A stretch of DNA of 59,012 nucleotides from a virus. Taxonomy: Duplodnaviria; Caudoviricetes. Of the stretch, positions 22,232 to 43,875 are shown one piece after another. Both the position numbers and the translations under genes were made by a program. Where the stretch lies: IMG/VR virus record IMGVR_UViG_3300048999_000041, positions 1 to 59,012 of that record; one strand, given 5' to 3'. Positions within the stretch are counted from its first letter, which is position 1; the number at the start of each line of letters is the position of its first letter. The notes under the pieces are model-generated. The model had not been told where the DNA came from and searched no databases. It was given only the letters and a program-made list of their open reading frames with translations.

Positions 22232-22315
22232 AAAAGCTCAAAAACCCCGGGGGATGTTTTCTAACAAACATTCTTCGGGGGGCTGAGCGGGTCTAAGCCG
22301 AGAGGAGGTGTTTAC

Positions 22316-26165: not shown

Positions 26166-26498
26166 ATGATCACAGGTAAGTTATACGACATGCTTAAGTG
26201 GGTCGCACAGGTGATTTTGCCTGCTATTGCTACCCTATATTTCACTTTGGCTGGTATTTGGAATCTCCCAAATGGCCAGCAAGTGATCGGCACTATAACC
26301 GCGGTAGATTTGTTCTTAGGGCTCATTCTCGGTATCTCTCAGACGAATTTTCAAAAAACCATTGAGGATGGCGGAGAGTTAATCGTACATCCAGACGGTA
26401 AACATGTCTTCTCTATTGACAGCAATGTTGTTGACATGGACAAGATTGGTACTAAAAAAGAAGTGAGATTTAAGGTTAAAAAAGCTCCTTCTAGTTAG
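26166..26498 (+). CDS. Holin (Dp-1 family)
   Basis: YDMLKWVAQVILPAIATLYFTLAGIW...VIGTITAVDLFLGLILGIS. Confidence 0.85.
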   Translation: MITGKLYDMLKWVAQVILPAIATLYFTLAGIWNLPNGQQVIGTITAVDLFLGLILGISQTNFQKTIEDGGELIVHPDGKHVFSIDSNVVDMDKIGTKKEVRFKVKKAPSS

Positions 26499-26500
26499 TG

Positions 26501-26530
26501 TTCGCGGGCAAAACGTCGCCTATAATGAGA
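26501..26530 (+). promoter_or_regulatory. CGCG-N14-TATAAT promoter P1
   Basis: TTCGCG-ggcaaaacgtcgcc-TATAAT-GAGA. Confidence 0.85.
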
Positions 26531-26548
26531 CCCTAACTAAGGAGCTGT

Positions 26549-26836
26549 ATGTTCGTTAAGAGCCCAAACAACGCGAAGCTGGATCGAGAGATCGCAGCTC
26601 AGTTCGACAAGCTGGAGGAGCTCAGAGATAGCCCAGAAGATTATAACAACGTCGTCGCGCGCATAGCTCAGCTGGAGAAGCTCAAGTCTGATGAAGGACT
26701 GAGGCCTCTCAGCTGGGACACTGTGCTCGTCGTCGGTGCCAACATCTTCGGCATCCTCTGGCTCGCCCGCTACGAGCGTGAGAATGTGATCAAATCGCAA
26801 ACCGCACTTCGCAACGTGATAAAGCCGAGACTTTAG
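26549..26836 (+). CDS. Cassette gene, small membrane-associated protein
   Basis: Between P1 and terminator; AAGGAG RBS; DTVLVVGANIFGILWLARYE motif. Confidence 0.8.
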   Translation: MFVKSPNNAKLDREIAAQFDKLEELRDSPEDYNNVVARIAQLEKLKSDEGLRPLSWDTVLVVGANIFGILWLARYERENVIKSQTALRNVIKPRL

Positions 26837-26860
26837 TACCGCCCGAAAAAGGATCAAAAA

Positions 26861-26896
26861 GGGAGATCGTGTTAAATACATGGTCTCTCTTTTTTT
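26861..26896 (+). terminator. Intrinsic terminator
   Basis: GGGAGATCGTGT/ACATGGTCTCTC stem + T7. Confidence 0.85.
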
Positions 26897-26955
26897 GCTT
26901 TAAAAAAATCCCGGGGGACATTTTCCACAAACTAAAAGATACTGATACGCGAAAC

Positions 26956-26984
26956 TCGCGCATATTTCATCTCCTATAATGAGA
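26956..26984 (+). promoter_or_regulatory. CGCG-N14-TATAAT promoter P2
   Basis: TCGCG-catatttcatctcc-TATAAT-GAGA; preceded by AGATACTGATACGCG box at 26937. Confidence 0.85.
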
Positions 26985-27005
26985 CCCACTATATAAGGAG
27001 ATGTT

Positions 27006-27233
27006 ATGACGAAGTGGTATGCTTTGGAAGTGGCGAAGACCGACCTCCCGCTGCTCAGATTCCTGAATGACGGATCCTTCCCTAAGACCCCGACCGGTAA
27101 ATACTATTTGGTATTTGGCGTGTCACGGGACGGGAAAGAGATCACCACTCAGATTCTGACCAAGAGCGAGATGTTCAAGCGCTACGACATGGCCAACACA
27201 AGCCCATTCCTCATCGCTTTAAAAGAGATCTAA
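27006..27233 (+). CDS. Cassette gene, hypothetical
   Basis: AAGGAG RBS, flanked by P2 and terminator. Confidence 0.8.
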   Translation: MTKWYALEVAKTDLPLLRFLNDGSFPKTPTGKYYLVFGVSRDGKEITTQILTKSEMFKRYDMANTSPFLIALKEI

Positions 27234-27264
27234 AAGCCATTGCCCCTTCGGGGGCTTTGGTTTT
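27233..27264 (+). terminator. Intrinsic terminator
   Basis: GCCCC-TTCG-GGGGC hairpin + T-rich tail. Confidence 0.8.
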
Positions 27265-27267
27265 GTC

Positions 27268-27297
27268 TTCGCGCATATTTTATCTCCTATAATAGAA
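27268..27297 (+). promoter_or_regulatory. CGCG-N14-TATAAT promoter P3
   Basis: TTCGCG-catattttatctcc-TATAAT-AGAA. Confidence 0.85.
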
Positions 27298-27323
27298 TCC
27301 AACCACATCCAAAAGGAGACCCC

Positions 27324-27551
27324 ATGACCAAGAAGATCAAGCAGATCGCTTCAGCCCCGAAGAGGATCGCTTCCCACGTCTACGTTCGTCGAGGCCGTTA
27401 CGGCGTCGCAGCTGGCATCATCGCCGGTAGCGTCATCGCACGCAACCTCGACAACGAGACGTACAAGGAGGCGATCGCCTTCATCAAGCTGAAGGGACTC
27501 GACGAAGAGTTCTTCAACCCAATGGAGTACGACTGGCAGGACATGGTCTAG
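27324..27551 (+). CDS. Cassette gene, small membrane-associated protein
   Basis: ATG 27324 after AAGGAG; hydrophobic YGVAAGIIAGSVIA. Confidence 0.8.
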   Translation: MTKKIKQIASAPKRIASHVYVRRGRYGVAAGIIAGSVIARNLDNETYKEAIAFIKLKGLDEEFFNPMEYDWQDMV

Positions 27552-27556
27552 TTCAA

Positions 27557-27588
27557 AGTGCGAATCCAAAACCTGGGTTCGCATTTTT
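27557..27588 (+). terminator. Intrinsic terminator
   Basis: AGTGCGAATCCA/TGGGTTCGCATT + T run. Confidence 0.85.
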
Positions 27589-27596
27589 CCCTGCAA

Positions 27597-27626
27597 TTCG
27601 CGTAAAAAACATGTCCTATAATAGAG
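27597..27626 (+). promoter_or_regulatory. CGCG-N14-TATAAT promoter P4
   Basis: TTCGCG-taaaaaacatgtcc-TATAAT-AGAG. Confidence 0.85.
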
Positions 27627-27705
27627 GAGAAACCGAAAGGTTTTGAACCGCCTATACTATAGTCTTCCCTTCGAGATTATATTTACAACTGGCGATTTCT
27701 TTTTT
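27623..27705 (+). ncRNA. Putative small RNA 1 (promoter-driven, ORF-less)
   Basis: AAACC-GAAA-GGTTT, CGCC/GGCG, TATAGTCT/AGATTATA helices; ends in T tract; no RBS/ORF. Confidence 0.55.
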
Positions 27706-27742
27706 CTGTCATCATATTTTAAGATAAGAAAGGTAAGTCCAA

Positions 27743-27946
27743 ATGGACGTTTATATTCTGACAAACCAAAAACCGGATTGGTCGGCACCCACGGGTGCTC
27801 CTATTTCAGTCCATTTAACACTTGACGGAGCTAAGAACGCTTTCTCAGGCGGTAAGTATTTTGACAAATGGCGTACCAAAGACAACGTACGGTGGAGTGG
27901 ACCGGACGGTTTTGGCTCCATTATCAAAATGGAACTACAAGACTAG
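27743..27946 (+). CDS. Hypothetical protein
   Basis: AAAGG RBS, 67 aa. Confidence 0.65.
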   Translation: MDVYILTNQKPDWSAPTGAPISVHLTLDGAKNAFSGGKYFDKWRTKDNVRWSGPDGFGSIIKMELQD

Positions 27947-27953
27947 ATCTTTT

Positions 27954-28027
27954 GGGCCTGTAGCTCAATTGGTCAGAGCAGCAGACTCATAATCTGTCAG
28001 ATCTGGGTTCGAGTCCCAGCAGGCCTA
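27954..28027 (+). tRNA. tRNA with CAT anticodon (probably Ile2, possibly Met)
   Basis: GGGCCTG/CAGGCCT acceptor, GCAGA-CTCATAA-TCTGT anticodon arm, TTCGAGT T-loop; no encoded CCA. Confidence 0.9.
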
Positions 28028-28052
28028 TATTTATACTCAAGATAGGAGACCC

Positions 28053-28382
28053 ATGCCCATTTCCGAAGAGCAGACCATCTGGTATCCCGGTATTTACCGC
28101 GGGTTAGAGGGGGACTACGCCACTACCCTCATAGAGGTGAAGGACGATGATCTCGTTCGTCTAGTTCAGGAACGAGCTGCGATAGATGGTGAGTGGACTA
28201 TCGAGAACTGGATTGTTGGAGATAACAATGAATACTTAATGCGCAAGATGATGGCTTGGGTCAGCGATCCAAAAAACATCCATCAGTGCGCAGAAGCAAA
28301 TTTAGTCATGAACCCCACGATCGACTGGATTTGCCGAGAGCTGGCCAATGCGTCTAAGTGGCTTTTTGACCCGGATTCGTAA
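28053..28382 (+). CDS. Hypothetical protein
   Basis: AGGAG RBS, 109 aa. Confidence 0.7.
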   Translation: MPISEEQTIWYPGIYRGLEGDYATTLIEVKDDDLVRLVQERAAIDGEWTIENWIVGDNNEYLMRKMMAWVSDPKNIHQCAEANLVMNPTIDWICRELANASKWLFDPDS

Positions 28383-28404
28383 ACAAACCAGTTCAGATAT
28401 TAGC

Positions 28405-28434
28405 TCGCGGAAAATTCCTCCCATTATACGAAGA
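28405..28434 (+). promoter_or_regulatory. Degenerate CGCG-type promoter P5
   Basis: TCGCG-N15-TATACG-AAGA; preceded by CAGATATTAG box. Confidence 0.5.
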
Positions 28435-28494
28435 GGCCGGATCGACCCTGTAGAGATCCCAACACCCTTAGCGGTGCACCTCTTTTTCTTTTTT
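28430..28494 (+). ncRNA. Putative small RNA 2
   Basis: GAAGAGG/CCTCTTT closing stem, GGATC/GATCC and CACC/GGTG hairpins, long T tail. Confidence 0.5.
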
Positions 28495-28498
28495 GGAG

Positions 28499-28528
28499 TT
28501 CGCGAAAAAAACATGCCCTATAGTGAGA
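28499..28528 (+). promoter_or_regulatory. CGCG-N14-TATAGT promoter P6
   Basis: TTCGCG-aaaaaaacatgccc-TATAGT-GAGA. Confidence 0.8.
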
Positions 28529-28591
28529 CCCATAACTGAAGCTATCCCAGCTTCGACTATAATCGCGAGATTGTAGTTGGGTTTCTTCTTT
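28525..28591 (+). ncRNA. Putative small RNA 3 (three-way junction)
   Basis: GAGACCCA/TGGGTTTC closing stem, GAAGCT/AGCTTC hairpin, GACTATAATC-GCGA-GATTGTAGTT GNRA hairpin, T tail. Confidence 0.6.
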
Positions 28592-28615
28592 GTCATCTAT
28601 TGAAAGGTTTGGTCA

Positions 28616-28777
28616 GTGCAAGCTAAGACGTCTAAGCGGCTCCATAATGTTGTCATCGAGTTCGCGAACGGCGTTACTCGGACTGTGAAGGTTAAAGCCA
28701 TTTCTCGTGAGCACGCTGAGAATCGCGCGCTTAAATTTCATCCGAATGCGATTGGAATCAAGCGTAATGCGTCGTAG
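28616..28777 (+). CDS. Small basic hypothetical protein (53 aa, not in ORF track)
   Basis: GTG after GAAAGG, open to TAG 28777. Confidence 0.5.
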   Translation: MQAKTSKRLHNVVIEFANGVTRTVKVKAISREHAENRALKFHPNAIGIKRNAS

Positions 28778-28910
28778 TCATACGACATATTGCGAAGTTT
28801 GCCCTAAGCCTTACGGCTTCTGGGCATTTATATTTGACTTGTTCATGGTTGCCATCACCGGTGGGTTTTGGCTCATCTGGATATTCGTGAGGGAGATGCG
28901 TCACCGATGA
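28767..28910 (+). CDS. Small membrane protein
   Basis: YGFWAFIFDLFMVAITGGFWLIWIFVREMR. Confidence 0.65.
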   Translation: MRRSHTTYCEVCPKPYGFWAFIFDLFMVAITGGFWLIWIFVREMRHR

Positions 28911-29057
28911 AAGAGTTTATCGGAGTAGTGCTTGCCGTTCTTGACGAGCGCAGAATGGATATTACGATCATCGTCACAACGTGTATTTGCATCGCTGCGG
29001 TATGGGCAATACTTCTCGCCTGGACTCAGTAGAGTCCACTATATTTTGAAAGGAAAT

Positions 29058-29843
29058 ATGCACATCATCAATGACGCACAGAAGCGAGTTCAGGATTTCG
29101 TTTCTGAGAACTCGTCAACGCTCCTCACTGCCGGTGGGGTTGTCGGCACAGTTACCACCGCGGTTCTGGCTGGTCGTGCCGGATACAAAGCAGCAGAGAT
29201 TGTCGCTGATCACCCGATGTTGCAAGACGTTGGGAAAGACGAAAAAGAGCTTCGTGATCGAACGAGAACCGAAAAGATTCAACTCGTCTGGTCAATCTAT
29301 ATTCCCCCCGTGATCACCGGCGGAGCAACAATCGCCAGCATTATCATGGCAAACAAGATGTCGGCTCAGCGTGCTGCCGCTCTGGCGGCTGCGTACGGTC
29401 TGTCACAGAAGCAATTCGAGGAATACAAGGCCAAGGTGGCTGAGAAGATCACTGGTCCGAAGAAGCAGCAGATCGCCGATGAGCTCGCACAGGAGAGAGT
29501 AGATCGTGCTCCGGGCGCATCGCAGATCGTCATCATCAACGGCGACGATGTTCTCTGCTTTGACGAGCCTACTGGTCGATACTTCAAGAGCTCCATGGAG
29601 AAGATCAATCGAGCGGCCAACTCAACCAACCAAGAGATCATCTCACACGGTCATGCCCGAGCTTCGCATTTCTACGAAGAGCTCGAGCTGCCGCCGACTA
29701 CCTGGTCCAACGACGTTGGTTGGAACCTGGACAACATGCTGGAGCTCGATATCACCACCACACAGGCGGATGATGGCAGGCCATGCTTGTCCATCAACTT
29801 TGCTCGCTTCCCGAACGAGGACTACCACCGCCAGGTGTATTAG
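29058..29843 (+). CDS. DUF6353-like conserved phage protein, paralog 1
   Basis: ENSSTLLTAGGVVGTVTTAVLA, ALAAAY, CFDEPTGRYFKSS; resembles 34440. Confidence 0.75.
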   Translation: MHIINDAQKRVQDFVSENSSTLLTAGGVVGTVTTAVLAGRAGYKAAEIVADHPMLQDVGKDEKELRDRTRTEKIQLVWSIYIPPVITGGATIASIIMANKMSAQRAAALAAAYGLSQKQFEEYKAKVAEKITGPKKQQIADELAQERVDRAPGASQIVIINGDDVLCFDEPTGRYFKSSMEKINRAANSTNQEIISHGHARASHFYEELELPPTTWSNDVGWNLDNMLELDITTTQADDGRPCLSINFARFPNEDYHRQVY

Positions 29844-29855
29844 GAGAGAAACCAA

Positions 29856-29963
29856 ATTTGGGCGTATGAGGATCGACAAAAAGGTATGAGGGCACTTCAT
29901 ATTTTACAAATCGATCGCCCCAGTCCCGGGGAAAGCGGAGCACGTGCGTTTCGCCGCCCAATT
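29856..29963 (+). ncRNA. Putative intergenic four-way-junction RNA
   Basis: TTGGGCG 29858/CGCCCAA 29955 closing stem enclosing GATCGA/TCGATC (with inner TATGAG/TTCATA), CCCC/GGGG and GCGGAGC/GTTTCGC hairpins; followed by TATATTT. Confidence 0.5.
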
Positions 29964-29991
29964 ATATTTTGTACCAAAAAAGGAGAGTTGT

Positions 29992-30144
29992 ATGTTTAAG
30001 AAGGACAAGCCGGTCTATAAGCGCCTTACTGACATCCGGCCCAAGTCTAAGAAGACCCCGAATAAGAAGCTCGTCGGAGCAAGTGTTGGTGTTGTTACCG
30101 TGCTGCTCGGATTGAGCGCCTTTAAGAACCGGGGACAGAAGTGA
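29992..30144 (+). CDS. Small basic membrane protein
   Basis: AAGGAG RBS; C-terminal TM. Confidence 0.6.
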   Translation: MFKKDKPVYKRLTDIRPKSKKTPNKKLVGASVGVVTVLLGLSAFKNRGQK

Positions 30145-30329
30145 TCCGTGGAGCGGTAATTCTAGCCGTGGGGTTCTCCCTCGGCTACGCCAAGGCCATG
30201 CACGATTCAGAAGATATTCGTGCTTTGCTTGCTCAGGCGGTTGATCTACTGCAGGAGCAGCAGCGAAAGTCGGAGGAAGCAGTTGATGGGACGGCAACCG
30301 AGACCCCCGAAGGAGAGACACATGAGTGA
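30141..30329 (+). CDS. Small membrane-anchored protein
   Basis: GTGA overlap; N-terminal hydrophobic segment. Confidence 0.6.
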   Translation: MIRGAVILAVGFSLGYAKAMHDSEDIRALLAQAVDLLQEQQRKSEEAVDGTATETPEGETHE

Positions 30330-30657
30330 CCGAAATGGAGAGGCCGCCGAGCTCGCTGAGCGTGCGGCTAGACAGGGAAAGCAGGCCGGTAAGAACGCCG
30401 CTCGAGCGGCTAAGGCGGTTGCAGAAGACGTGGCTGACACCGTCGTCGACGAGACCCGAGACACCTTGGACAAGCTCGAACAGACTGGAGAGGATGTCAT
30501 GGGCGCAGCTCGTCGTGTGAACCCGAGGACGCTCAGTCGTATCTCTGGTGATACTGGTATGGGCTTCCTTGCCCTGTCCGTGTCTCTATACACCGGAGCC
30601 GTCGCAATTAGCAAGTTCCGCGCAGTCTACGCCGGACGCAGTTCGGTCATCGACTAG
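30322..30657 (+). CDS. Hypothetical protein with C-terminal TM
   Basis: ATG 30322 after AAGGAG. Confidence 0.65.
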   Translation: MSDRNGEAAELAERAARQGKQAGKNAARAAKAVAEDVADTVVDETRDTLDKLEQTGEDVMGAARRVNPRTLSRISGDTGMGFLALSVSLYTGAVAISKFRAVYAGRSSVID

Positions 30658-30987
30658 ATGGATCGTGACCAATTTGAGAACATCCTGGATGCGCAAATCA
30701 AGCGTGTCCGGGATGTTCTGGTCTTAAAAGCGACCGAATACGCTAACGAAGATCGTCTCGCCAATTTCAAAAAGGCGGCGGTCCTTGCTGGTCGAGGAAT
30801 TCCGCAAATTATTGGTGGGATGATGATAAAACATACTGTGTCCATCTACGACATGATCGAAAGCGGCAAGCCATATTCTATTGATGTATGGAATGAGAAG
30901 ATCACCGACCACATCAACTACCTTATTCTTCTACGCGCCTCTTTGATCGAGAACGCTAATTCAGACCAAGGAACTTTATCTTGTTAA
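30658..30987 (+). CDS. All-alpha nucleotide-modification-associated / MazG-like protein
   Basis: KATEYA.EDRLANFK...KH...EKITDHINYLILL pattern. Confidence 0.55.
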   Translation: MDRDQFENILDAQIKRVRDVLVLKATEYANEDRLANFKKAAVLAGRGIPQIIGGMMIKHTVSIYDMIESGKPYSIDVWNEKITDHINYLILLRASLIENANSDQGTLSC

Positions 30988-31589
30988 AGAAAGTCATTAC
31001 CTATACCAACCCGTTCACCGACGAAGAGGTGAGCGAGGAGCATTACTTCCATATTTCCAAGGCCGATCTGGTCGAGATGGAGATGGAGGAGCATAATGCT
31101 ACATACGAGAAAGACGGCGAACAGCTCACCGGCATGCAGGCCAAGCTTCAACGAGTTATCGATTCCGAAGACGGCAAGGCCATTCTTTCAGAGTTTAAGG
31201 ACATCATTCGCCGGTCTTATGGCAAGAAAGACGGAGATCGCTTTATCAAGTCTTCTGAGATTTGGGCGGAGTTCTCTTCGTCCGAAGCGTATTCTCAGCT
31301 CATATTTGATCTGTGCACGGATGCTGAAATTGCTGGCGAGTTTGTCACCGGTATCATTCCCAAGAACTTGGATAAGATCGCTGAAGAGATTAAGTCGCGG
31401 GCAGATGTGGATCAAAGCGAGCCGGAGATCGACACAGCTCCTGATGTCGTTAATAATGCTAATATTTCTACAGCTTGGCCTTCCGACGAGGACTCAATCG
31501 CTCAAATTCTGTCACCCGACGAAGTGGCGGCAATGGACTCTGATGAACTGAAGTCCGGTCTTGCCGAAGGGCGCTACAAGCTCTCCTAG
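30981..31589 (+). CDS. Conserved phage protein with C-terminal MDSxE module
   Basis: MLKKVITY...YFHISKADL...SYGKK.GDRFIKS...F.SSEAYS motif conserved in this group; TTG start. Confidence 0.75.
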   Translation: MLKKVITYTNPFTDEEVSEEHYFHISKADLVEMEMEEHNATYEKDGEQLTGMQAKLQRVIDSEDGKAILSEFKDIIRRSYGKKDGDRFIKSSEIWAEFSSSEAYSQLIFDLCTDAEIAGEFVTGIIPKNLDKIAEEIKSRADVDQSEPEIDTAPDVVNNANISTAWPSDEDSIAQILSPDEVAAMDSDELKSGLAEGRYKLS

Positions 31590-31601
31590 AGAGGGGTCTC
31601 A

Positions 31602-31734
31602 CATAAAAGGGGTATAGGGCGGCTAAAGCGTCTTATATTAAACGACAGCAACGCTCGGTGCAGATGCGGTACTATTCCGTGGAGGGATATGCTCCGTCTG
31701 GTAAGGTAAACCGACGACATGCGCCCCTTTTATG
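31602..31734 (+). ncRNA. Structured RNA module upstream of the large RNA
   Basis: Perfect 11-bp closing stem CATAAAAGGGG/CCCCTTTTATG; TATAGGGCG/CGTCTTATA, TCGGT/ACCGA, CAGATG/CGTCTG helices. Confidence 0.6.
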
Positions 31735-31750
31735 CTCTATATTTCAAAAC

Positions 31751-32155
31751 GTGATGGGACACGCCCATCGCCGTAAGTCCTGACGCTTATTGTACGAAGG
31801 TTTATGTACTAAGCTAAGGTAATCGGCAAACCTTCTGAGTTAGTCGCAGAAGTTGTTGCAAACCCTGGGGTAGTGACCCAGGTACCTGAGGGATCGACTC
31901 CTCGGGTAAGTCTTATCTAGGTGCTAATCGACCTAGAATACTTCGTCGGGAACCCTACCGTTCAAGTACAAGTACCGACGTCGAAAGTATGGTTGGGTCT
32001 GCTAACAAATACCATACTAAAAATAGAACGCGCAAAAAGGGCCCAAGAGCGCGTTCGACAACACAGCAGTTCATGGCAGTAAAACAAATAACTATAGCGT
32101 TCCCGTAACATTGTTCGCTGGTACGGGCTGATTTACATCCATCAGAGCTATAGTT
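31751..32155 (+). ncRNA. Large ornate ncRNA, ROOL-like (copy A)
   Basis: ORF-free; at least 10 consecutive helices, loop-loop complementarities, and covariation with paralog at 43501; ROOL resemblance is from recall only. Confidence 0.7.
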
Positions 32156-32167
32156 CATAGATCCCAT

Positions 32168-32499
32168 CTCACGGCCGCGACCTCCAGGTAAGAGGCGAGG
32201 GGTGCAAGCGAAAGCCGGACTGGCGCCAGTTTAGGCGGCCGGATAAGCTCTGCGGAGGGATACACAACCTGCCCGCCGTGGGTAGTAAGTAGGCCTGCTC
32301 TACTAATTCAGGAAGTCCGATCCCCCAGACAATTGTGCCCTTCGTCGGTGTACGGTTGATCTGGGGGTAGGCACTTAATCTTAGATAGGTCGAGTATCCG
32401 GTAAAGGCAGGAAGGCGTACATCCAATCGCTTCCACCGTGAGGATAAAATGTCAGTAATAGGCGCGGTAGGGACTTATCAGCCGCCTGCTACCTATCTA
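32168..32499 (+). ncRNA. Further structured RNA modules (3' part of the ncRNA cluster)
   Basis: CTCACGGC/GCCGTGGG (32168/32275), CCCCCAGA/TCTGGGGG (32322/32360), TAGATAGGT/ACCTATCTA (32382/32491) closing stems with internal hairpins. Confidence 0.55.
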
Positions 32500-32501
32500 T
32501 A

Positions 32502-32531
32502 TTCGCGTAAAAAACTACTCCTATAATAGAA
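32502..32531 (+). promoter_or_regulatory. CGCG-N14-TATAAT promoter P7
   Basis: TTCGCG-taaaaaactactcc-TATAAT-AGAA. Confidence 0.85.
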
Positions 32532-32555
32532 GACCCTACCTACAAGGAGTATCTA

Positions 32556-32822
32556 ATGGAAAGCCCTGATTTTACCCCGCGCAATGTCGCGAAGTTCGTA
32601 GTCAAGGCCATTGTTGCCGGAAGAGCTGCTCAGCTCGCCGAAGACGCCATCACCGATTACACGCGGTTCGAGGAAGACGATATGATCGTCGACATCTCGA
32701 CCAGCGTGATCGGCTGGTACGTCTCGGACAAGCTGAAGCCCTACACCGACAAGATGGTCGACAAGACTGCCGACTTCATCGCCGCAAAGCGCGGTAAGAA
32801 GGACACCACAGAGACCCAGTAG
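32556..32822 (+). CDS. Cassette gene, hypothetical
   Basis: AAGGAG RBS, between P7 and terminator. Confidence 0.8.
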   Translation: MESPDFTPRNVAKFVVKAIVAGRAAQLAEDAITDYTRFEEDDMIVDISTSVIGWYVSDKLKPYTDKMVDKTADFIAAKRGKKDTTETQ

Positions 32823-32828
32823 CTGGTC

Positions 32829-32864
32829 AAATGAGGATCTGCCTAATACGCAGGTTCTCATTTT
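32829..32864 (+). terminator. Intrinsic terminator
   Basis: AAATGAGGATCTGC/GCAGGTTCTCATTT + T. Confidence 0.85.
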
Positions 32865-32867
32865 GTT

Positions 32868-32897
32868 TTCGCGTTATATTCATCTCCTATAATGAGA
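32868..32897 (+). promoter_or_regulatory. CGCG-N14-TATAAT promoter P8
   Basis: TTCGCG-ttatattcatctcc-TATAAT-GAGA. Confidence 0.85.
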
Positions 32898-32922
32898 CCT
32901 ATATCTATCTAAGGAGACCCTT

Positions 32923-33090
32923 ATGGACACCGATCGATTCCTCACCAACCTTCAGCATCAGGCTGAAGACAATCCGGTGCTGGCTCTCGGAGTTGCAGCT
33001 GCGCTGTTTACTTCGCTGAGCAAGCTCCTGAATGCCGCTGCCTGGAAGAAGGAAGTGAGTCGACGGACCCTGAAGGACCGAAAGAAGTAG
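32923..33090 (+). CDS. Cassette gene, 55-aa membrane-associated protein (not in ORF track)
   Basis: AAGGAG RBS; MDTDRFLTNLQHQAEDNPVLALGVAAALFTSLSKLLNAAAWKKEV... Confidence 0.8.
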   Translation: MDTDRFLTNLQHQAEDNPVLALGVAAALFTSLSKLLNAAAWKKEVSRRTLKDRKK

Positions 33091-33099
33091 TCACCTTAT

Positions 33100-33130
33100 A
33101 ATGAGAATCCAAAACATGGGTTCTCATTTT
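33100..33130 (+). terminator. Intrinsic terminator
   Basis: AATGAGAATCCA/TGGGTTCTCATT + TT; homologous to 27557. Confidence 0.85.
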
Positions 33131-33133
33131 GCC

Positions 33134-33163
33134 TTCGCGTAAAAAACACTCCCTATAATGAGA
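33134..33163 (+). promoter_or_regulatory. CGCG-N14-TATAAT promoter P9
   Basis: TTCGCG-taaaaaacactccc-TATAAT-GAGA. Confidence 0.85.
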
Positions 33164-33253
33164 GAGACAACTGTCGCCGATCCCCGCAAGGGGCAATCCG
33201 TCTGCTGGTTGCGACATAAAAGACTATTACCAGTGTCTTTCTTTTTCTTTTTT
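33160..33253 (+). ncRNA. Putative small RNA 4 (pseudoknot)
   Basis: GAGAGAGACA/TGTCTTTCTT closing stem, TGTCGC/GCGACA, CCCC-GCAA-GGGG, loop CTGGT pairing with ACCAG; long T tail. Confidence 0.6.
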
Positions 33254-34268: not shown

Positions 34269-34443
34269 GTCAGGAGAGAAGCCGGAAGAGGAAGGGGACA
34301 CGCGTCCCATGCCTTGTCCTACGTGCGAAAGCACTAGAGGATATTCTCGAGTGGGAAATTATCGAGTTCAGTGTCTGAATTGTAATTCCTTGCTAAAGAA
34401 CGAAGAAGTCGACATGCAATTTTCCGATCAGGAGCAAAAATGA
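34249..34443 (+). CDS. Small zinc-ribbon protein
   Basis: CPTC...CLNC; GTG after AAGGAG. Confidence 0.6.
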   Translation: MIQHPFESGEKPEEEGDTRPMPCPTCESTRGYSRVGNYRVQCLNCNSLLKNEEVDMQFSDQEQK

Positions 34444-35366
34444 ATCTAATTCCAACCGCGATCAGTCGCAAGATCTCAGAACAAGGTCTCCTTGCGTCTG
34501 AGCACGCCCCAAAGGTTCTCTTTGTGGGTGGCGTCGTGGGCATGGTCGGCTCGACCGTTCTGGCCTGTCGTGCGACGCTAAAAGTTGAGGGTATCCTCGA
34601 TCGAGTTGATGCTGGCAAGGAACAAGCCGAAGAGGTCTTTGCTGTGGTCAACGACCCAGAGTATATCGGAGAATCTACATATTCTCTGAAGGAGTACAAG
34701 AAGGACCTTCACATCATCAGGGCGCGTGGGCTTGGACAGGTTGTTAAACTCTATGCGCCCTCTGTGATCTTGGGCGCAGCTTCAGTTGCCGCGTTGACTA
34801 AGTCGCACAACATCCTGCAAGATCGAAATCTTGCCCTGGCTGCTGCCTACACGGCGGTTGACAGTGCCTTCGCTCGGTATCGTGAGCGAGTTATCGACAT
34901 GTTCGGTGAAGAGATGGACGACGATATTCGTTACGAGTCAGAGCAGGTTGACGTTGTCGACGAAGAGACGGGTGAGGTCAAGACGATTACTCGCATTGTC
35001 GACGCACCAGGGTCAGCATATTCTCGATTCTATGACGAAGAGTCGTCGAGGAATTGGTCTACTAACCCGGACATCAACATGGCGTTTCTACGCACTGTTC
35101 AGAACTATGCGAATGATCGGTTGAAGATTCGCGGTCACGTGTTTCTCAATGAGGTCTACGACGAGCTGGGACTGTCACATACTAAAGCCGGATCGGTTGT
35201 CGGATGGCGTTGGAATAAGGAGTCCGGAGACGATTACATCGATTTCGGCATCTGGGACGACACAAGTGAGGCGGTAAACGACTTTTTCAATGGTCGTGAA
35301 GGAGCCATCCTCCTTGACTTCAATGTCGATGGCGTAATCTACGATAAGCTTGAGGAGCGGTATTGA
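34440..35366 (+). CDS. DUF6353-like conserved phage protein, paralog 2
   Basis: HAPKVLFVGGVVG..GSTVLACRAT, RNLALAAAY, GHVFLNEVYDELG, LLDFNVDG. Confidence 0.8.
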   Translation: MNLIPTAISRKISEQGLLASEHAPKVLFVGGVVGMVGSTVLACRATLKVEGILDRVDAGKEQAEEVFAVVNDPEYIGESTYSLKEYKKDLHIIRARGLGQVVKLYAPSVILGAASVAALTKSHNILQDRNLALAAAYTAVDSAFARYRERVIDMFGEEMDDDIRYESEQVDVVDEETGEVKTITRIVDAPGSAYSRFYDEESSRNWSTNPDINMAFLRTVQNYANDRLKIRGHVFLNEVYDELGLSHTKAGSVVGWRWNKESGDDYIDFGIWDDTSEAVNDFFNGREGAILLDFNVDGVIYDKLEERY

Positions 35367-37214: not shown

Positions 37215-40200
37215 ATGGACTTCTATCAGATCCGAGTGCACGAGACAAAAGAAGGGCCGCTGGAGCTATATCCCGACTTTATCGTCGGGCGTTCTGAGGA
37301 TCTGATGGTCCAAGGTCGTACTTTCTATGCTATTTGGGACGAAGAGAAGAAATTATGGTCGCAAGATGAGTATGATGTACAGCGACTGGTTGATGAAGAT
37401 CTGCGCCAGGAGGCGAATCGACTACATAAGGAGACTGGACAGAAGTACACTATACGTTCTATGCGCTCATTCGGTTCAAACTCCTGGACGCAGTTTCGTA
37501 AGTTCGTTGCTCATATTTCCGATAATAGTCATCCGCTAGATTCCAAGCTGGTCTTTGCTAACGCCGAGATAAAAAAGGAAGACTATGCCTCAAAACAACT
37601 CCCCTACGCACTGTCTGAGGGGGCCACGCCAGCTTGGGATGAGCTCCTCGCAACTCTCTATGCTCCGGAAGAGCGCGCAAAGATTGAGTGGGCTATTGGC
37701 TCGATTGTTTCGGGGGATAGTAAACGCATTCAGAAATTTCTCGTCTTCTATGGCCCGGCTGGTACTGGTAAGTCGACGATTCTCGGAATTATCGAGAAAC
37801 TCTTCGAAGGATATACCACGACATTCGATGGCAAGGCGTTGGGTAACTCCAATTCGTCATTTGCCACCGAAGCGTTTAAACATCACCCCCTTGTCGCGAT
37901 CCAGCACGATGGGGATCTTTCGCGGATCGAGGATAATACACGCCTGAACTCCATCATCTCACACGAGACGATGACTATGAACGAGAAGTACAAGCCATCA
38001 TATTCAGCAAGAGTTGACGCCATGCTGTTCATGGGCTCCAATCAGCCGGTAAAGATCTCTGATGCAAAATCGGGAATCATCCGACGTCTGATGGACGTGC
38101 ATCCGACAGGTATCAAGATTCCAGCCAAGCACTATCAGACTCTCATGACGCAAATCGGCTTTGAACTCGGTGCCATAGCGCACCGTTGTCTCTCTGTATA
38201 TTTGTCTATGGGTAAGAATTACTACGACGCATATCGTCCGTTGGAGATGATGTTGCAGACCGACGTCTTCTTTAACTTCATCGAAGCACATTTTGATGTG
38301 TTCAAGTCACAAGATCATACCACGCTAAAGCAAGCGTATATCTTGTATAAGGAATATTGCTCGGACAGCGGAATCGAGAGACCTATGCCGCAATACAAAA
38401 TGCGAGAGGAGTTGCGAAACTACTTTGATGAGTTTCACGATCGAGGTGAACTCGACGGCCAACCAGTACGAAGCCTTTACTCCGGGTTTAACGCCAATAA
38501 GTTCAAAGCGCCCAAAGACGATCCGGCGACATTTTCGTTAGTGCTTGAAGAAAAGACCTCTCTTCTTGATGAGTTTTTAGCTGACTACAAAGCACAGTTG
38601 GCTTTGACCAAAGATACCGAGTACCAAAAGGCCGGAGATCCGGAGAGAAAATGGGCTAATGTAAAAACCAAGCTATCAGATATTGATACGCGAAAAATTC
38701 ACTGGGTTAAAGTTCCTGAAAATCACGTGGTGATCGATTTCGATCTGAAGGACAGTAATGGAACCAAAGCTCTCGAGCGAAATCTCGAAGCGGCCAGTCA
38801 GTGGCCACCCACTTACGCTGAGTTGTCAAAATCAGGTTCTGGCGTACATCTTCATTTTAGCTACACCGGAGACCCCGATGAGCTTGCGTCTCAATACGCT
38901 GAAGGCATTGAAGTTAAAGTGTATCGAGGGGAAGCTGCCTTGCGCCGTCGTGTGTCCAGATGTAACGCGGTGCCTATTGCGGAGATATCTACCGGACTCC
39001 CAGTAAAGCCTAGAAAGGACAAGATGCTCAAGGAGAAAACTATCAAGAGCGAACACGGGTTGCGGGAACTGATAAAGAAGAATCTGCGTAAGGAGATTCA
39101 TCCAGGCACCAAATCTTCGGTGGACTTTATCAAGCATATTCTTGATGAAGCGCACGAGTCGGGAATGAAATACGACGTCAGCGATATGCGTAACACGATT
39201 GTCGCGTTCGCCAACAACTCTACTAACCAGGCCACTCAGGCCCTGAAAACGGTTATGAACATGAAGTGGGCGTCTGATGAGCCGGATTCAGAAGGTTCTG
39301 GAGTCAGTGAGCCCGTAGTGGAAGTGGCTGACGATCGACTTGTCTTCTTCGATGTCGAGGTATATTCTAATCTGTTTGTTATTTGTTGGAAGTTTCTTGG
39401 CTCCGAAGAAGTAGTCAAGATGATTAACCCAAAACCTCACGAAGTGGCCGAGCTATTTAAATTGAAGTTAGTGGGCTTCTATAATCGACGATATGACAAT
39501 CATATTCTATATGCGGCGGCTATGGGGGCAACCAACGAAGAGCTCTTTCGTTTAAGCAGTAAGATCATTGAAGGCAATCGCTCGGCTACCTTCGGAGCGG
39601 CGTATAACTTGTCTTACGCCGATATTTGGGATTTCTCTTCGGTTAAGCAGAGTCTGAAGAAGTTCGAGCTTGACCTGGGAATACTTCATATGGAGTTAGA
39701 TATTCCCTGGGATCAGGCGGTGGACGAAAGCGATTGGCAGCGAGTGGTTGATTATTGTGTCAATGACGTTAAGGCAACTGAGAAAGTCTTCGAAGATAGA
39801 AAAGCAGATTTCGTAGCTCGACAGATCTTAGCCGAGTTATCCGGTCTTACGGTAAATGATACCACACAGAATCACACCGCGCGAATCATATTTGGCAACG
39901 ACAAACAAGCCTCTAAGAAGTTTATCTACACCGATCTTAGCGAAGAATTCCCCGGGTATGAATTTAAGCTTGGCAAGAGTTATTACCGCGGAGAAGAGCC
40001 TGGCGAAGGGGGCTATGTCTACGCTGAACCGGGAATGTATGAAAACGTCGCAGTATTAGACGTTGCCTCCATGCATCCCAACAGTATTATCGCCTTAAAT
40101 GCGTTCGGCCCGTATACTCAGAAGTTTGAAGACCTTATTAAAGCTCGTATTGCAATTAAGCGTAAAGATTTTGATGCTGCCGCCAACATGTTGGACGGTA

Positions 40201-41494: not shown

Positions 41495-41734
41495 ATGAAA
41501 AAGAATAAAAACACTGACTACAAAATTTCGTTCCGGCAGAGCAGAATAATAGGCACGTGGTCTTATATCATCAAGACCCCAGACGGTCGAAGGCTTTATC
41601 CCGTTATTATGGGTACCTTCGCTATGAAGGAATCAGCGGAGAGAGACGCCCTGCGAAGAATAAATCTCGATCGAGCGACATACGAGATGACGGGGACCGA
41701 GCTTGCAACCAAGTACAACAAACAGGAGAGCTAA
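41495..41734 (+). CDS. Hypothetical protein
   Basis: 79 aa; stop overlaps SSB start. Confidence 0.55.
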   Translation: MKKNKNTDYKISFRQSRIIGTWSYIIKTPDGRRLYPVIMGTFAMKESAERDALRRINLDRATYEMTGTELATKYNKQES

Positions 41735-42210
41735 TGGCGTCACCAGACCCAAAGCAGTCCGTCCTCATGGAGGGCGTCCGTATCATCTTCCGCAACTTTG
41801 CGGGTAAGGAGGGTAAGTACAACCGAGAAGGCGATCGCAACTTCGGCGTGATTCTGCCACCGGATATTGCTGAGGCTATGTTGGCGGATGGCTGGGCAGT
41901 GAAGTATCTGCAGCCCAGAGAGGACGACGAAGAGCCTCAGGAGACGCCATGGCTGCCGGTTTCGGCAGCCTTTGACAAGGGGCGTCCGCCACAGGTTGTG
42001 TTGATCACTTCTCGTGGTCGGACTAACCTGGATGCCGATACGGTCGAGACGCTTGACTGGGCCGATATCACCAATGTCGACCTGATGGTGCGTCCATATT
42101 TCTGGGACGTTAACGGTAAGACCGGAATCAAGGCCTACCTGCAGTCCATGTACGTCACTATCGAAGAGGATGCGTTGGCGCAGAAGTATGCGGAGATGGA
42201 CTCGCAGTGA
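41734..42210 (+). CDS. Single-stranded DNA-binding protein
   Basis: ATG 41734 after AGGAG; RIIFRNFAG..GKYNREGDRNF...GIKAYLQSMYVTIEED; downstream of polymerase. Confidence 0.8.
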   Translation: MASPDPKQSVLMEGVRIIFRNFAGKEGKYNREGDRNFGVILPPDIAEAMLADGWAVKYLQPREDDEEPQETPWLPVSAAFDKGRPPQVVLITSRGRTNLDADTVETLDWADITNVDLMVRPYFWDVNGKTGIKAYLQSMYVTIEEDALAQKYAEMDSQ

Positions 42211-43494: not shown

Positions 43495-43500
43495 TATTTC

Positions 43501-43845
43501 TTGGCGGATCACGCCCGTCGCCGTAAGTCCCAGCAACGAAACCGCTTGCGGTTAGTAACTGGGTAAGTCGGCAACCGGTCTGAGTTAGTCGCAGGCTGAA
43601 GGGTGGACCATTAGGCGCGTTGCGTCGTCCATTCATAAACCCCGGTTCGTGACCGGGTACCTACGGAGATCGACTCCCGTAGGTCAATTGGCTTATATGC
43701 AAGGGGTTGACTTGTGCCTCTTAAAGGAATCCTGTACATAGCTGAGAACAGAGTAAAGACAAGCAGCGTTAGCATACGCAGAAGTACGGTGGTGGGGTCT
43801 CCACGGGGGTCTGGGCTTAATCGCCTGGGCCCCCGTGCCTTACTT
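43501..43845 (+). ncRNA. Shorter paralog of the large ncRNA (copy B)
   Basis: Shares CACGCCC.TCGCCGTAAGTCC, TCGGCAA, TCTGAGTTAGTCGCAG, GTGACC, GGTACCT, GATCGACTCC with 31751 and compensatory stem changes; ends in a 15-bp GC hairpin (43802/43823). Confidence 0.7.
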
Positions 43846-43875
43846 CTAATAACAATATCGAAAGGCTTGCATAGC

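What the first reader, a model, noticed from the sequence alone, without database searches (positions are those of the whole stretch)
31751..32155. Large ornate kissing-loop ncRNA (ROOL-like) in an actinobacterial-type phage
Seen: no + strand ORF, and helices run back to back: GATGGG/CCCATC, GCCG/CGGC, CTTCTG/CAGAAG, CCTGGG/CCCAGG, TACCTGAGG/CCTCGGGTA, TCTAGGT/ACCTAGA, CGTCGG/CCGACG, AGTATGGT/ACCATACT, GAACGCGC/GCGCGTTC, AACTATAGC/GCTATAGTT, CCCGTA/TACGGG. Loops are mutually complementary: AGTCG 31842 with CGACT 31895, and TTGGGTCT 31993 with GGGCCCAA 32039. Recall (unverified): the order of conserved words (CACG, CCGUAAGU, AAUCGG, UGAGU.AG.CG, GGUGCU.AUCGAC, UGCUAA, AUGGC, UCGCU) resembles ROOL RNA. 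ROOL is described mainly from Firmicutes/Fusobacteria and rumen phages and forms RNA-only nanocages. Inference: either a divergent ROOL in a new host phylum or a new large RNA class.
Basis: partly seen in the sequence, partly recalled or inferred. Interest (0 to 1): 0.9.

Follow-up and report, generated by a model that had tools for sequence, protein, structure and literature searches.

The report
New double kissing-loop phage RNA
A soil phage carries two copies of an uncatalogued RNA fold of about 170 nucleotides, held together by two loop-to-loop contacts and shared with related uncultured phages; it is not ROOL and its job is still unknown.

Summary

- **No known family.** Rfam 15 gives no ROOL, GOLLD or raiA match, even at E<=10.
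- **Module A (31750-31915).** The 5' 166 nt is one copy of a conserved RNA domain: five hairpins P1-P5 tied by two loop-loop pairings (P1 loop with P4 loop, P3 loop with P5 loop).
- **Family.** A second copy lies at 43500-43692. Ten further distinct members come from uncultured phage and metagenome contigs.
- **Covariation.** Over the 12 sequences, 98.6% of cells pair and 18 of 43 pairs change on both sides, in both kissing helices too. 0 of 500 shuffles reach this; slid controls pair 34-45%.
- **Position.** Relatives carry the module where window copy 2 sits, so the finding's copy is a displaced paralogue.
- **The rest (31916-32160).** Six hairpins and a second loop complementarity have no homologue and only thermodynamic support (z -2.55).
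- **Downstream.** The same 966-nt gap holds another conserved module, C, at 32281-32378. Relatives carry shuffled arrays of at least eight such modules.

No transcript data exist. My best guess is a cis-acting leader domain.

The parts
31602..31734 (+). Upstream part of the gap: 11-bp inverted repeat CATAAAAGGGG (31602-31612) / CCCCTTTTATG (31724-31734) around about 110 nt. The word ATAAAAGGGGTAT (31603-31615) followed by TTATATT recurs upstream of copy 2 (43462-43474).
   Evidence: Read. Pattern search: 2 exact copies in the window, both upstream of a module A copy, but the count is not beyond chance (13 of 100 shuffles give 3 or more matches at 2 mismatches). Function not shown.
31714..31743 (+). 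Sigma-70-like promoter-like site ACGACA-18-TATATT ending 7 nt before module A.
   Evidence: It is a weak consensus match: 3 sites found against 1.6 +/- 1.4 in shuffles.
31750..31915 (+). Module A, copy 1 (the conserved part of the finding). P1 31753-31758/31764-31769. P2 31770-31773/31824-31827 with internal loop UAAGU/UAAU. P3 31832-31837/31847-31852. P4 31864-31869/31877-31882. P5 31883-31891/31900-31908. Kissing K1: CAC 31760-31762 with GUG 31873-31875. Kissing K2: AGUCG 31842-31846 with CGACU 31895-31899.
   Evidence: Model R1 scores 132.2 bits, E 5e-33. Covariation. RNAalifold. Helix words located.
31916..32160 (+). Stretch specific to this phage: six predicted hairpins (TCTAGGT/ACCTAGA, CGTCGG/CCGACG, AGTATGGT/ACCATACT, GAACGCGC/GCGCGTTC, AACTATAGC/GCTATAGTT enclosing CCCGTA/TACGGG) and a possible loop-loop pairing 31993-32000 with 32039-32046.
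   Evidence: words; MFE -64.1 kcal/mol, z -2.55. No homologue in any locus held (nhmmer), so no covariation test is possible.
32161..32280 (+). GC-rich structured stretch, unassigned. It loosely resembles the 3' half of module B of relatives (GGAUAA ... GCGG.GGG ... CCCGC).
   Evidence: By eye in the MAFFT alignment. nhmmer finds no significant match. Not claimed as module B.
32281..32378 (+). Module C: near-invariant core GUAGGCCUGCUCUAC-N-A-W-UUCAGGAAGUCCGA, then a variable hairpin (UCCCCCAGA...UCUGGGGG here), then UAGGC.
   Evidence: nhmmer E 1e-4 to 3e-2 to 6 distinct related contigs (7 rows; L059 duplicates L012). 7 distinct sequences extracted. By my reading, the variable hairpin is the main stem of the MFE fold in 5 of 7 and disrupted in L014 and L057. 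Not in Rfam.
32501..32533 (+). Promoter-like repeat TTCGCG-N14-CCTATAAT(G/A)AGA in front of the 88-aa gene (32556-32822). It marks the 3' limit of the non-coding RNA region.
   Evidence: Repeat families D2, D3 and D5, which overlap; by my merge about 10 distinct places between 26.5-33.2 kb and 47.3-47.6 kb. Also.
43500..43692 (+). Module A, copy 2, at the position shared with relatives. P1 43503-43507/43515-43519. K1: UCACG 43509-43513 with CGUGA 43648-43652 (5 bp). K2: AGUCG 43587-43591 with CGACU 43671-43675. It has an extra hairpin between P3 and P4.
   Evidence: R1 121.7 bits, E 2.9e-30. Sequence. Synteny.

Best explanation
The first 166 nt of the finding (31750-31915) are one of two copies in this phage of a new, autonomously folding RNA domain that I call module A.

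Fold. Five hairpins follow one another (P1, P2 with a conserved UAAGU/UAAAU internal loop and a variable tip, P3, P4, P5). Two loop-loop helices lock them together: K1 joins the P1 loop to the P4 loop, and K2 joins the P3 loop to the P5 loop. This would give two side-by-side stacks, P1-K1-P4 and P3-K2-P5.

Context. The module is read on the same strand as the genes. It forms part of long untranslated stretches that these phages build from interchangeable structured modules (A, B, C and others). The rest of the finding (31916-32160) is an insert of hairpins specific to this phage, between module A and further modules.

Mechanism I commit to (inferred, not shown). Module A acts in cis on the transcript that carries it. 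The kissed fold fixes the P5 hairpin, which in some members is followed by a U-run like an intrinsic terminator. It also presents the almost invariant P1-P2 face to a phage or host factor. Together these would set how much transcription or stable RNA reaches the downstream early/middle genes.

Odds. That it is a real, new structured RNA family: about 0.9. That it works in cis as a leader or elongation-stability element: about 0.4. The confidence figure given for this explanation is for the whole statement, mechanism included.
For: **Family.**
- A 19-mer from P1/P2 found 4 viral contigs and 46 metagenome loci.
- 14 places passed the 3' word filter. They make 12 distinct sequences, the two window copies included.
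- Model R1 scores these 12 at 121.7-177.3 bits. The only other matches among 35 sources (276,558 bases) are two rows at 12.6 and 10.1 bits.

**Structure.**
- On the MAFFT alignment, 97.7% of cells pair and 18 of 43 pairs change on both sides. 0 of 500 shuffles reach this, and slid controls pair 33-46%.
- On the model-fitted alignment the figures are 98.6%, 18 of 43 pairs and 46 cells.
- RNAalifold finds P1-P5 on its own: 37 pairs, 14 with compensatory change.
- K1 covaries at 3 of 4 pairs: ACAC:GUGU in most, UUGC:GCAA in L038, UCACG:CGUGA in window copy 2.
- K2 covaries at 2 of 5 pairs with 100% pairing: AGUCG:CGACU in the window, AGCCG:CGGCU in most, CGCCG:CGGCG in L014.

**Strand and coding.**
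- By my tally of the pair types, 17 cells are G-U or U-G. These would be A-C on the other strand.
- All three + frames carry at least one stop in 12 of 12 members, and lengths differ by non-multiples of three.

**Cis reading.**
- The module is co-oriented with flanking genes in all 6 contigs examined.
- Its 3' end lies within about 25-65 nt of a start codon in L012, L014, L015 and L038 (my reading).
- By my count, the 12 nt after P5 hold 8-10 U in L012, L015 and L013.
- The scan flags P5 of copy 1 as terminator-like.
- There are two copies in one genome in front of different gene sets.
- The downstream genes are unrelated to each other, which argues for a general leader and not a pathway-specific riboswitch.
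Against: - There is no expression evidence. No RNA run holds the stretch, and the phage is uncultured.
- The 12 sequences are few and related (effective number 1.7), so shuffle controls overstate significance.
- P2 never varies (4 of 4 pairs invariant), and P1 has 3 invariant pairs.
- K1 has 3 unpaired cells of 48.
- A strong U-run after P5 is present in only 3 of 11 complete tails, and in neither window copy.
- Promoter calls are at chance level. In L048 and L055 another module (E) abuts the 5' end, so the module is not always at a transcript start.
- In L055, and in the window, module A is followed by hundreds of nt of further non-coding modules and not by a gene. That fits a stand-alone non-coding RNA equally well.
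Confidence: 0.4

Rival explanations
1. Stand-alone trans-acting non-coding RNA. The module, alone or as A-B-C composites, is a stable RNA gene that binds or sequesters a host or phage protein, for instance as an anti-defence decoy or a scaffold. It would not regulate its own transcript.
For: - Modules behave like shufflable genes. Orders differ between contigs: D-E-A-B-C5-C in L055, A-F-genes-C5-C-D-E-B in L057, A-gene-G-B-D-E-C-H in L014.
- L055 holds at least 620 nt of contiguous modules without a gene.
- The window places A, a unique insert and C in one 966-nt gap whose downstream gene has its own promoter-like repeat at 32501-32533.
- The near-invariant P1-P2 sequence suggests a protein-binding face.
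- Abundant non-coding RNAs of unknown function are reported from RNA-seq of other actinophages (passages of PMC10986025). Those phages are unrelated clusters.
Against: - No defined 3' end in most members (U-run in 3 of 11).
- No expression data.
- Four members place the module directly in front of a start codon.
Confidence: 0.25
2. RNA-only homo-oligomer. K1 and/or K2 form between molecules, as in phi29 pRNA rings or ROOL/GOLLD cages, and build a multimeric particle.
For: - Two pairs of mutually complementary, covarying hairpin loops are what intermolecular assembly needs.
- The linker from P3 to P4 is only about 5-10 nt in most members. My geometric estimate is that this is tight for spanning a 16-22-bp stack within one molecule.
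- Short phage-associated RNAs can form large assemblies: the manA motif forms a 60-mer (abstract and outline of bioRxiv 10.64898/2026.07.01.735769). ROOL and GOLLD complexes are described in the abstract of bioRxiv 10.1101/2024.12.08.627333 (listing).
Against: - Sequence cannot tell intra- from intermolecular pairing.
- The P4-P5 1-nt linker and the P1-P2 abutment suit a compact monomer.
- There is no likeness to ROOL or GOLLD models.
Confidence: 0.1
3. Ligand-sensing riboswitch whose aptamer is the kissed five-hairpin core and whose expression platform is P5.
For: - Highly conserved unpaired nucleotides lie at the internal loop and junctions (UAAGU/UAAAU, AAACCC, GGUACC).
- The module sits in a 5'-UTR position in 4 members.
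- P5 with a U-run occurs in 3 members.
- The best Rfam row is a riboswitch aptamer, c-di-GMP-I, at 16.1 bits, E 3.3.
Against: - Downstream genes are unrelated small proteins.
- The c-di-GMP-I score is far below its 35-bit gathering score. It does not recur in any of 9 related loci at E<=1.
- By my reading, only window copy 1 has GCAAA before P4.
- No conserved alternative pairing was found.
Confidence: 0.08
4. Divergent member of ROOL.
For: The region is structured, in a phage, and has kissing loops.
Against: - No ROOL match at E<=10.
- The conserved unit is about 170 nt against 574 model positions.
- Relatives share only the 5' module and not the whole stretch.
- Caveat: the ROOL model rang in none of the 14 control genomes, so that call has no positive control.
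Confidence: 0.01
5. Not an RNA at all: a DNA-level element (origin, packaging or operator site) or a chance cluster of inverted repeats.
For: Copy 2 lies in the replication module, after the ssDNA-binding and H2TH-like genes. Inverted repeats also suit DNA cruciforms.
Against: - G-U pairs make the structure strand-specific.
- Loop-loop covariation has no DNA-duplex meaning.
- The family is conserved at 121.7-177.3 bits across contigs whose neighbouring proteins are 37.5-81% identical to the window's.
Confidence: 0.03

Closest known systems
ROOL RNA (Rfam RF03087) and GOLLD RNA (RF02032)
   Same: Structured non-coding RNA carried by phages, with hairpin loops that pair with each other. The relatives' arrays of modules recall a large multi-domain RNA.
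   Different: No covariance-model match. The conserved unit is about 170 nt, not 574 or 416 positions. It is present twice in one genome. Modules are shuffled between phages. Oligomer formation is untested.
phi29-type packaging RNA (pRNA); its properties are recalled, not tested here
   Same: A phage RNA of similar size whose two loops are mutually complementary and covary between relatives.
   Different: pRNA loops pair between molecules to form a ring on the portal of protein-primed podoviruses. This phage has terminal repeats and its genes are read on one strand. No Rfam family matched, but I did not check that pRNA is in the library.
c-di-GMP-I riboswitch aptamer (RF01051)
   Same: The only Rfam row over the module: GGCAAA, hairpin, GCAAA, hairpin order in window copy 1, with two side-by-side hairpins.
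   Different: 16.1 bits against a gathering score of 35, E 3.3. No match in 9 related loci. The second GCAAA is not conserved in the family.
Processive antitermination RNAs of phages and bacteria (HK022 put, EAR); recalled, not tested here
   Same: Structured elements that act in cis on the transcript carrying them, can occur at more than one operon of one phage, and act irrespective of the downstream gene.
   Different: No sequence or model likeness was tested beyond the general Rfam scans. A promoter-proximal position is not established (at chance; module E abuts the 5' end in L048 and L055).
manA RNA motif (phage-associated pseudoknotted RNA)
   Same: A short, phage-borne, pseudoknotted RNA of unknown function. 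It was recently shown to self-assemble (abstract and outline of 10.64898/2026.07.01.735769).
   Different: No Rfam match of any kind over the module. The architecture differs: five hairpins and two kisses.
Candidate structured RNAs of viruses (Fremin et al. 2023, PMC10690425)
   Same: A catalogue of 10,006 candidates predicted from the same kind of viral contigs (abstract and outline). Module A may be among them.

Membership tests
ROOL (RF03087) | Match to the Rfam covariance model at or above 99.1 bits | tested here: not met
   No match at gathering. None at E<=10 in 31400-32700, at E<=5 in the whole window or at E<=10 in the genome. The model rang in none of the 14 control genomes, so one search lacks a positive control.
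ROOL (RF03087) | One conserved RNA of about 570 nt | tested here: not met
   Only 166 nt are conserved with relatives. 31916-32160 has no homologue.
ROOL (RF03087) | RNA-only multimeric cage | not testable with these tools
   Needs mass photometry or cryo-EM of the transcript.
GOLLD (RF02032) | Match to the Rfam covariance model at or above 150 bits | tested here: not met
   No match at E<=10. None.
raiA (RF03072) | Match to the Rfam covariance model at or above 101.3 bits | tested here: not met
   No match at E<=10.
c-di-GMP-I riboswitch (RF01051) | Match at or above 35 bits | tested here: not met
   16.1 bits, E 3.3, at 31815-31889.
c-di-GMP-I riboswitch (RF01051) | The same match recurs in homologues of the element | tested here: not met
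   0 matches at E<=1 in 9 related loci that hold module A.
Module A (family defined here, model R1) | Full-length match to model R1 (170 positions, 34 nested pairs) | tested here: met
   Copy 1 scores 132.2 bits and copy 2 scores 121.7 bits, both spanning positions 1-170. Both copies were in the seed alignment, so they match by construction. The independent evidence is the ten non-window members.
Module A (family defined here, model R1) | K1: P1 loop pairs with P4 loop | tested here: met
   3 of 4 pairs covary and 93.8% of cells pair. Copy 1 has 3 bp plus an A-A mismatch. Copy 2 has 5 bp.
Module A (family defined here, model R1) | K2: P3 loop pairs with P5 loop | tested here: met
   5 pairs, 100% of cells paired, 2 pairs covary. 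Both window copies carry AGUCG:CGACU.
Module A (family defined here, model R1) | Transcribed as RNA on the + strand | not testable with these tools
   No RNA run listed. Strand inferred from G-U pairs and gene orientation only.

The most novel reading that the evidence does not exclude
Module A, alone or joined to modules such as B and C, is a self-assembling RNA. Its two covarying loop pairs would form between molecules and build rings or cages. The shuffled arrays of at least eight unknown structured modules in these soil phages would then be a kit of RNA building blocks or RNA genes: a third lineage of ornate phage RNA particles beside ROOL/GOLLD and pRNA, in phages related to actinophages.
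Probability: 0.1. Interest if true: 0.85.

Novelty: new variant of a known kind. Interest (0 to 1): 0.6.

Why it matters
A compact RNA held by two independent, covarying kissing-loop helices is rare among natural RNAs, and it is a ready target for structure work at about 170 nt.

It has no Rfam entry. No blastn match was found in 50,697 deposited phage genomes. Its relatives show that a lineage of uncultured soil phages devotes 0.5-1 kb of its early/replication region to interchangeable structured RNA modules of unknown function.

If these act on transcription or RNA stability, they are a new layer of phage gene control. If they are stable RNAs or assemblies, they add to the short list of large functional phage RNAs. 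Either way, the finding turns an anonymous intergenic gap into defined, testable units with coordinates, a model and designed compensatory mutants.

Tried and rejected
**Known RNA families.** ROOL, GOLLD, raiA and all other Rfam families gave nothing. One search used an accession I recalled wrongly: RF01998 is group-II-D1D4-1, not GOLLD. I repeated the search with RF02032.

**Cultured phages.** blastn of the whole gap and of the L012 member (E<=1) against the phage collection found no match.

**The same gap in relatives.** In Gordonia phage Petito and Rhodococcus phage ReqiPoco6 the corresponding gap is about 165-170 nt by the annotated coordinates. Model R1 finds nothing in the roughly 28-kb parts of these two genomes that I held.

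**Protein-guided loci.**
- Searches gave 6 loci. nhmmer with the whole gap found nothing in them.
- The first DNA pattern, which required both the P2 and P3-loop words of the window, found nothing, because relatives carry AGCCG in that loop.
- The 3' pattern and a P2-spanning pattern added no new contigs.
- The genome-contig scan gave one chance hit, L016, without the rest of the motif.

**Metagenome loci.**
- Of the 46 loci, 38 lacked the 3' half of the motif.
- Twelve of those 38 are a separate repeat group (L023, L027, L032, L036, L037, L040, L041, L047, L051, L052, L053, L061).
- One search was given 35 of the 62 loci then held (L001-L062). The loci left out were ones I judged coding-like or duplicates.

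**Small ORFs.** Those inside the gap have no Pfam or PHROG match. I did not run the large protein databases on them.

**Module B.** It is not significant in the window.

**Upstream part.** The alignment with L006 was uninformative.

**Expression.**
- No RNA holder is listed.
- Laying contigs of three DNA runs showed only the likely source contig and two 151-nt fragments, with no differences.
- Nothing can be said on expression or on variants.

**Catalogue check.** The supplements of PMC10690425, which may list this motif, could not be read.
Full report
**Setting.** The window is a complete virus record of 59,012 bp with 127-bp direct terminal repeats. The long reading frames are nearly all on the + strand. 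GC is mostly 42-56% per 1-kb bin.
- Its DNA primase/polymerase (37215-41057) is 62-63% identical to those of Gordonia and Rhodococcus phages. Weaker relatives occur in Arthrobacter, Streptomyces, Pseudomonas, Enterococcus and Lactococcus phages (353 records).
- The finding lies in a 966-nt gap (31590-32555). The gap sits between a gene with a Phage_TAC_17 domain (30981-31589) and an 88-aa gene.
- In Gordonia phage Petito and Rhodococcus phage ReqiPoco6 the corresponding gap is only about 165-170 nt by the annotated coordinates. The window therefore holds roughly 800 nt of extra untranslated sequence here.

- The stretch folds better than shuffles: z is -2.69 for 31750-31916, -2.55 for 31917-32160 and -3.25 for the whole gap.
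- 'No + strand ORF' is not strictly true. There are ORFs of 53 and 39 aa, but none of the seven small ORFs in the gap that I tested matches Pfam or PHROGs at E<=0.1.

**Is it ROOL?** No.
- Rfam 15 at gathering thresholds finds only three tRNAs in the window.
- With permissive filters at E<=10 on 31400-32700, the only row over the finding is c-di-GMP-I at 16.1 bits (gathering 35, E 3.3).
- Direct searches with ROOL (RF03087), GOLLD (RF02032) and raiA (RF03072) give nothing at E<=10. The ROOL model had no positive control among the 14 control genomes.

**What it is: module A.** A self-comparison of the genome showed that 31818-31849 recurs at 43562-43594. Reading that place showed a second copy of the first ~170 nt of the finding. 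It has the same words in loops and junctions and compensatory changes in the stems.
- A 19-mer from the P1/P2 region found four viral contigs. A slightly looser 19-mer found 46 metagenome loci.
- Fourteen places also carry the 3' half. They make 12 distinct sequences, including the two window copies.
- The other 38 metagenome loci are chance matches, mostly inside coding-like sequence, or belong to an unrelated repeat group.
- The MAFFT alignment of the 12 sequences has 250 columns.

**The fold.**
- P1 is a 6-bp hairpin with loop ACACG.
- P2 (GCCG/CGGC) abuts P1. It continues through a symmetric internal loop UAAGU/UAAAU into a stem whose tip varies from 7 to about 60 nt.
- P3 is a 7-bp hairpin with loop AGUUAGCCG.
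- A 5-10-nt linker follows, ending in AAA. In three members the linker carries an extra hairpin.
- P4 is a 5-6-bp hairpin with loop GUAGUGU.
- One nucleotide separates P4 from P5, a 9-10-bp hairpin with loop (GA)UCGGCU.
- Two loop-loop helices tie these together: K1 joins the P1 loop to the P4 loop, and K2 joins the P3 loop to the P5 loop.

**Support for the fold.**
- RNAalifold, without input from me, predicts P1-P5: 37 pairs, 14 with compensatory change.
- Counting my full structure with both kisses on the MAFFT alignment gives 97.7% of cells paired and 18 of 43 pairs changed on both sides. 0 of 500 shuffles reach this, and versions with the partner slid by 1-3 columns pair 33-46%.
- On the model-fitted alignment the figures are 98.6%, 18 of 43 pairs and 46 cells.
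- K1 covaries at 3 of 4 pairs: ACAC:GUGU in most, UUGC:GCAA in L038, and UCACG:CGUGA (5 bp) in window copy 2.
- K2 covaries at 2 of 5 pairs and pairs in every cell: AGUCG:CGACU in both window copies, AGCCG:CGGCU in nine members, and CGCCG:CGGCG in L014.
- Caveats: the sequences are few and related (effective number 1.7), P2 never varies, and K1 has three unpaired cells.

**Strand and coding.** By my tally, seventeen cells are G-U or U-G, so the structure belongs to the + strand, the strand of the genes. Every member has stops in all three + frames, and lengths differ by non-multiples of three.

**How specific is the family?**
- Model R1 scores the 12 members at 121.7-177.3 bits. The only other matches in 276,558 bases of window and loci are two rows at 12.6 and 10.1 bits.
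- Four related viral records hold one copy each and a fifth holds none.
- No cultured phage matches by blastn.
- The species-genome collection gave only one chance hit.
- None of nine related loci has any Rfam match at E<=1.

**Which copy is the original?** Local blastp of flanking ORFs against the window's ORFs shows where the module sits in relatives.
- In L012, L013, L014, L048 and L057 it follows homologues of the window's ssDNA-binding protein gene (41557-42210), of 42503-43078 and, in three of them, of the H2TH-like gene (43079-43420).
- In L015 it precedes a homologue of 44581-45060.
- This is the place of window copy 2 (43500-43692). The finding's copy is thus a paralogue placed in another gap.

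**The rest of the finding and of the gap.**
- 31916-32160, with six hairpins and the possible UUGGGUCU/GGGCCCAA loop pairing, has no homologue in anything held. It rests on folding energy alone.
- 32281-32378 is a second conserved element, module C. It has a near-invariant 32-nt core, a variable hairpin and UAGGC. It was extracted from six related contigs and the window. By my reading, the variable hairpin is the main stem of the MFE fold in 5 of 7.
- 32161-32280 only loosely resembles module B of relatives and is not significant.
- 32501-32533 is one of about ten copies, by my merge of overlapping families, of a promoter-like repeat TTCGCG-N14-CCTATAAT(G/A)AGA. It probably serves the downstream gene.

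**Module arrays in relatives.** Relatives carry further conserved non-coding modules in varying order:
- L055: D-E-A-B-C5-C, at least 620 nt without a gene.
- L048: C ... D-E-A.
- L057: A-F-genes-C5-C-D-E-B.
- L014: A-gene-G ... B-D-E-C-H.

Module B, and the hairpin of module E, show compensatory changes by eye. A followed by C recurs in the window and in L055.

**How it may work.** Shown: a conserved, strand-specific fold with two kisses; two copies in this phage; co-orientation with genes; unrelated downstream genes; and modular arrays. Everything else is inferred.
- I favour a cis-acting leader or elongation-stability element at about 0.4.
  - Four members sit within about 25-65 nt of a start codon.
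  - P5 is followed by 8-10 U in 12 nt in three of eleven tails (my count), and the scan flags it as terminator-like in copy 1.
  - The element serves different genes, as general antitermination or stabilising leaders do.
- Against this reading:
  - The U-run is absent from most members and from both window copies.
  - Promoter calls are at chance level.
  - Module E abuts the 5' end in two members.
  - In the window and in L055 the module is followed by more non-coding modules.
- That last point suits a stand-alone RNA gene, at about 0.25.
- An intermolecular reading of the kisses, giving an oligomer as in pRNA or ROOL/GOLLD, cannot be excluded from sequence (about 0.1).
- A riboswitch is unlikely (about 0.08) given the unrelated downstream genes.

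**Literature.**
- Listing, abstract and outline of PMC10690425: 10,006 candidate structured RNAs were predicted in viral sequences. The motif may be listed there, but the supplements are closed.
- Passages of PMC10986025: abundant non-coding RNAs of unknown function are seen in other actinophages.
- Abstracts or listings of 10.1101/2024.12.08.627333 and 10.64898/2026.07.01.735769: ROOL, GOLLD and the short manA RNA form RNA-only assemblies.
- My four searches turned up no description of this motif. They do not prove that none exists.

**Verdict.** It is a new double-kissing-loop RNA module, present twice in this phage, joined to an insert specific to this phage and to other unknown modules. 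It is not ROOL, and its function is open.

Noticed in passing
window 26486-33165 and 47262-47573: About ten places, by my merge of overlapping repeat families, carry a promoter-like repeat TTCGCG-N14-CCTATAAT(G/A)AGA. It is often preceded by a hairpin with a T-run (for example 27559-27590 and 33102-33133). This looks like the early promoter-terminator set of the phage (D2, D3, D5, D17).
   Followed up: partly
L055, L057, L048, L014, L015, L012, L013, L034 (coordinates): Related contigs hold at least seven further conserved non-coding modules (B, C5, D, E, F, G, H) in shuffled order. None matches Rfam at E<=1. Modules B and E show compensatory changes by eye.
   Followed up: partly
window 32281-32378: Module C has a near-invariant core GTAGGCCTGCTCTAC.A.TTCAGGAAGTCCGA, a variable hairpin and TAGGC. 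The core allows several mutually exclusive pairings (GUAG/CUAC, CCUG/CAGG, GCCU/AGGC), and there is no variation to choose between them.
   Followed up: partly
window 31602-31612 with 31724-31734: A perfect 11-bp inverted repeat CATAAAAGGGG/CCCCTTTTATG encloses about 110 nt just upstream of module A copy 1. It could be a long-range stem or the ends of a small insertion.
   Followed up: no
window 43693-43875: The stretch after module A copy 2 looks non-coding. It has a 15-bp GC-rich hairpin at 43802-43837 that the scan flags as terminator-like, and a better start (ATG near 43876) than the GTG at 43714 that the ORF list uses.
   Followed up: no
L023, L027, L032, L036, L037, L040, L041, L047, L051, L052, L053, L061: Twelve metagenome loci share the 19-mer CGCCC.TCGCCGTAAGTCC inside a different conserved repeat (...GGGCAGAGCCCGACGTGAGGC-19mer-GAGTG...), in AT-rich, eukaryote-like context. 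They are not module A: R1 gives at most 12.6 bits, with 11 of the 12 searched (L052, identical to L036 over the stretch read, was not).
   Followed up: no
window 3079-3372 and 8512-8802: In-frame tandem repeats lie inside genes: a 30-nt unit repeated about 7 times in ORF 3073-3555, and collagen-like Gly-X-Y coding repeats in ORF 8312-9424 (D1, D4, D9).
   Followed up: no
window 28932-29843 and 34440-35366: There are two paralogous DUF6353 / phrog_2152 genes, one on each side of the gap.
   Followed up: no
window 27954-28027, 46006-46088, 47204-47276: Three tRNA genes. The nearest one is 2.3 kb from module A copy 2.
   Followed up: no
window 5-25, 16098-16118, 22240-22260, 58890-58910: The palindromic word AAATGCCCCGGGGGATGATTT and its variants recur at the ends of gene blocks. 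They are probably terminator hairpins (D10).
   Followed up: no
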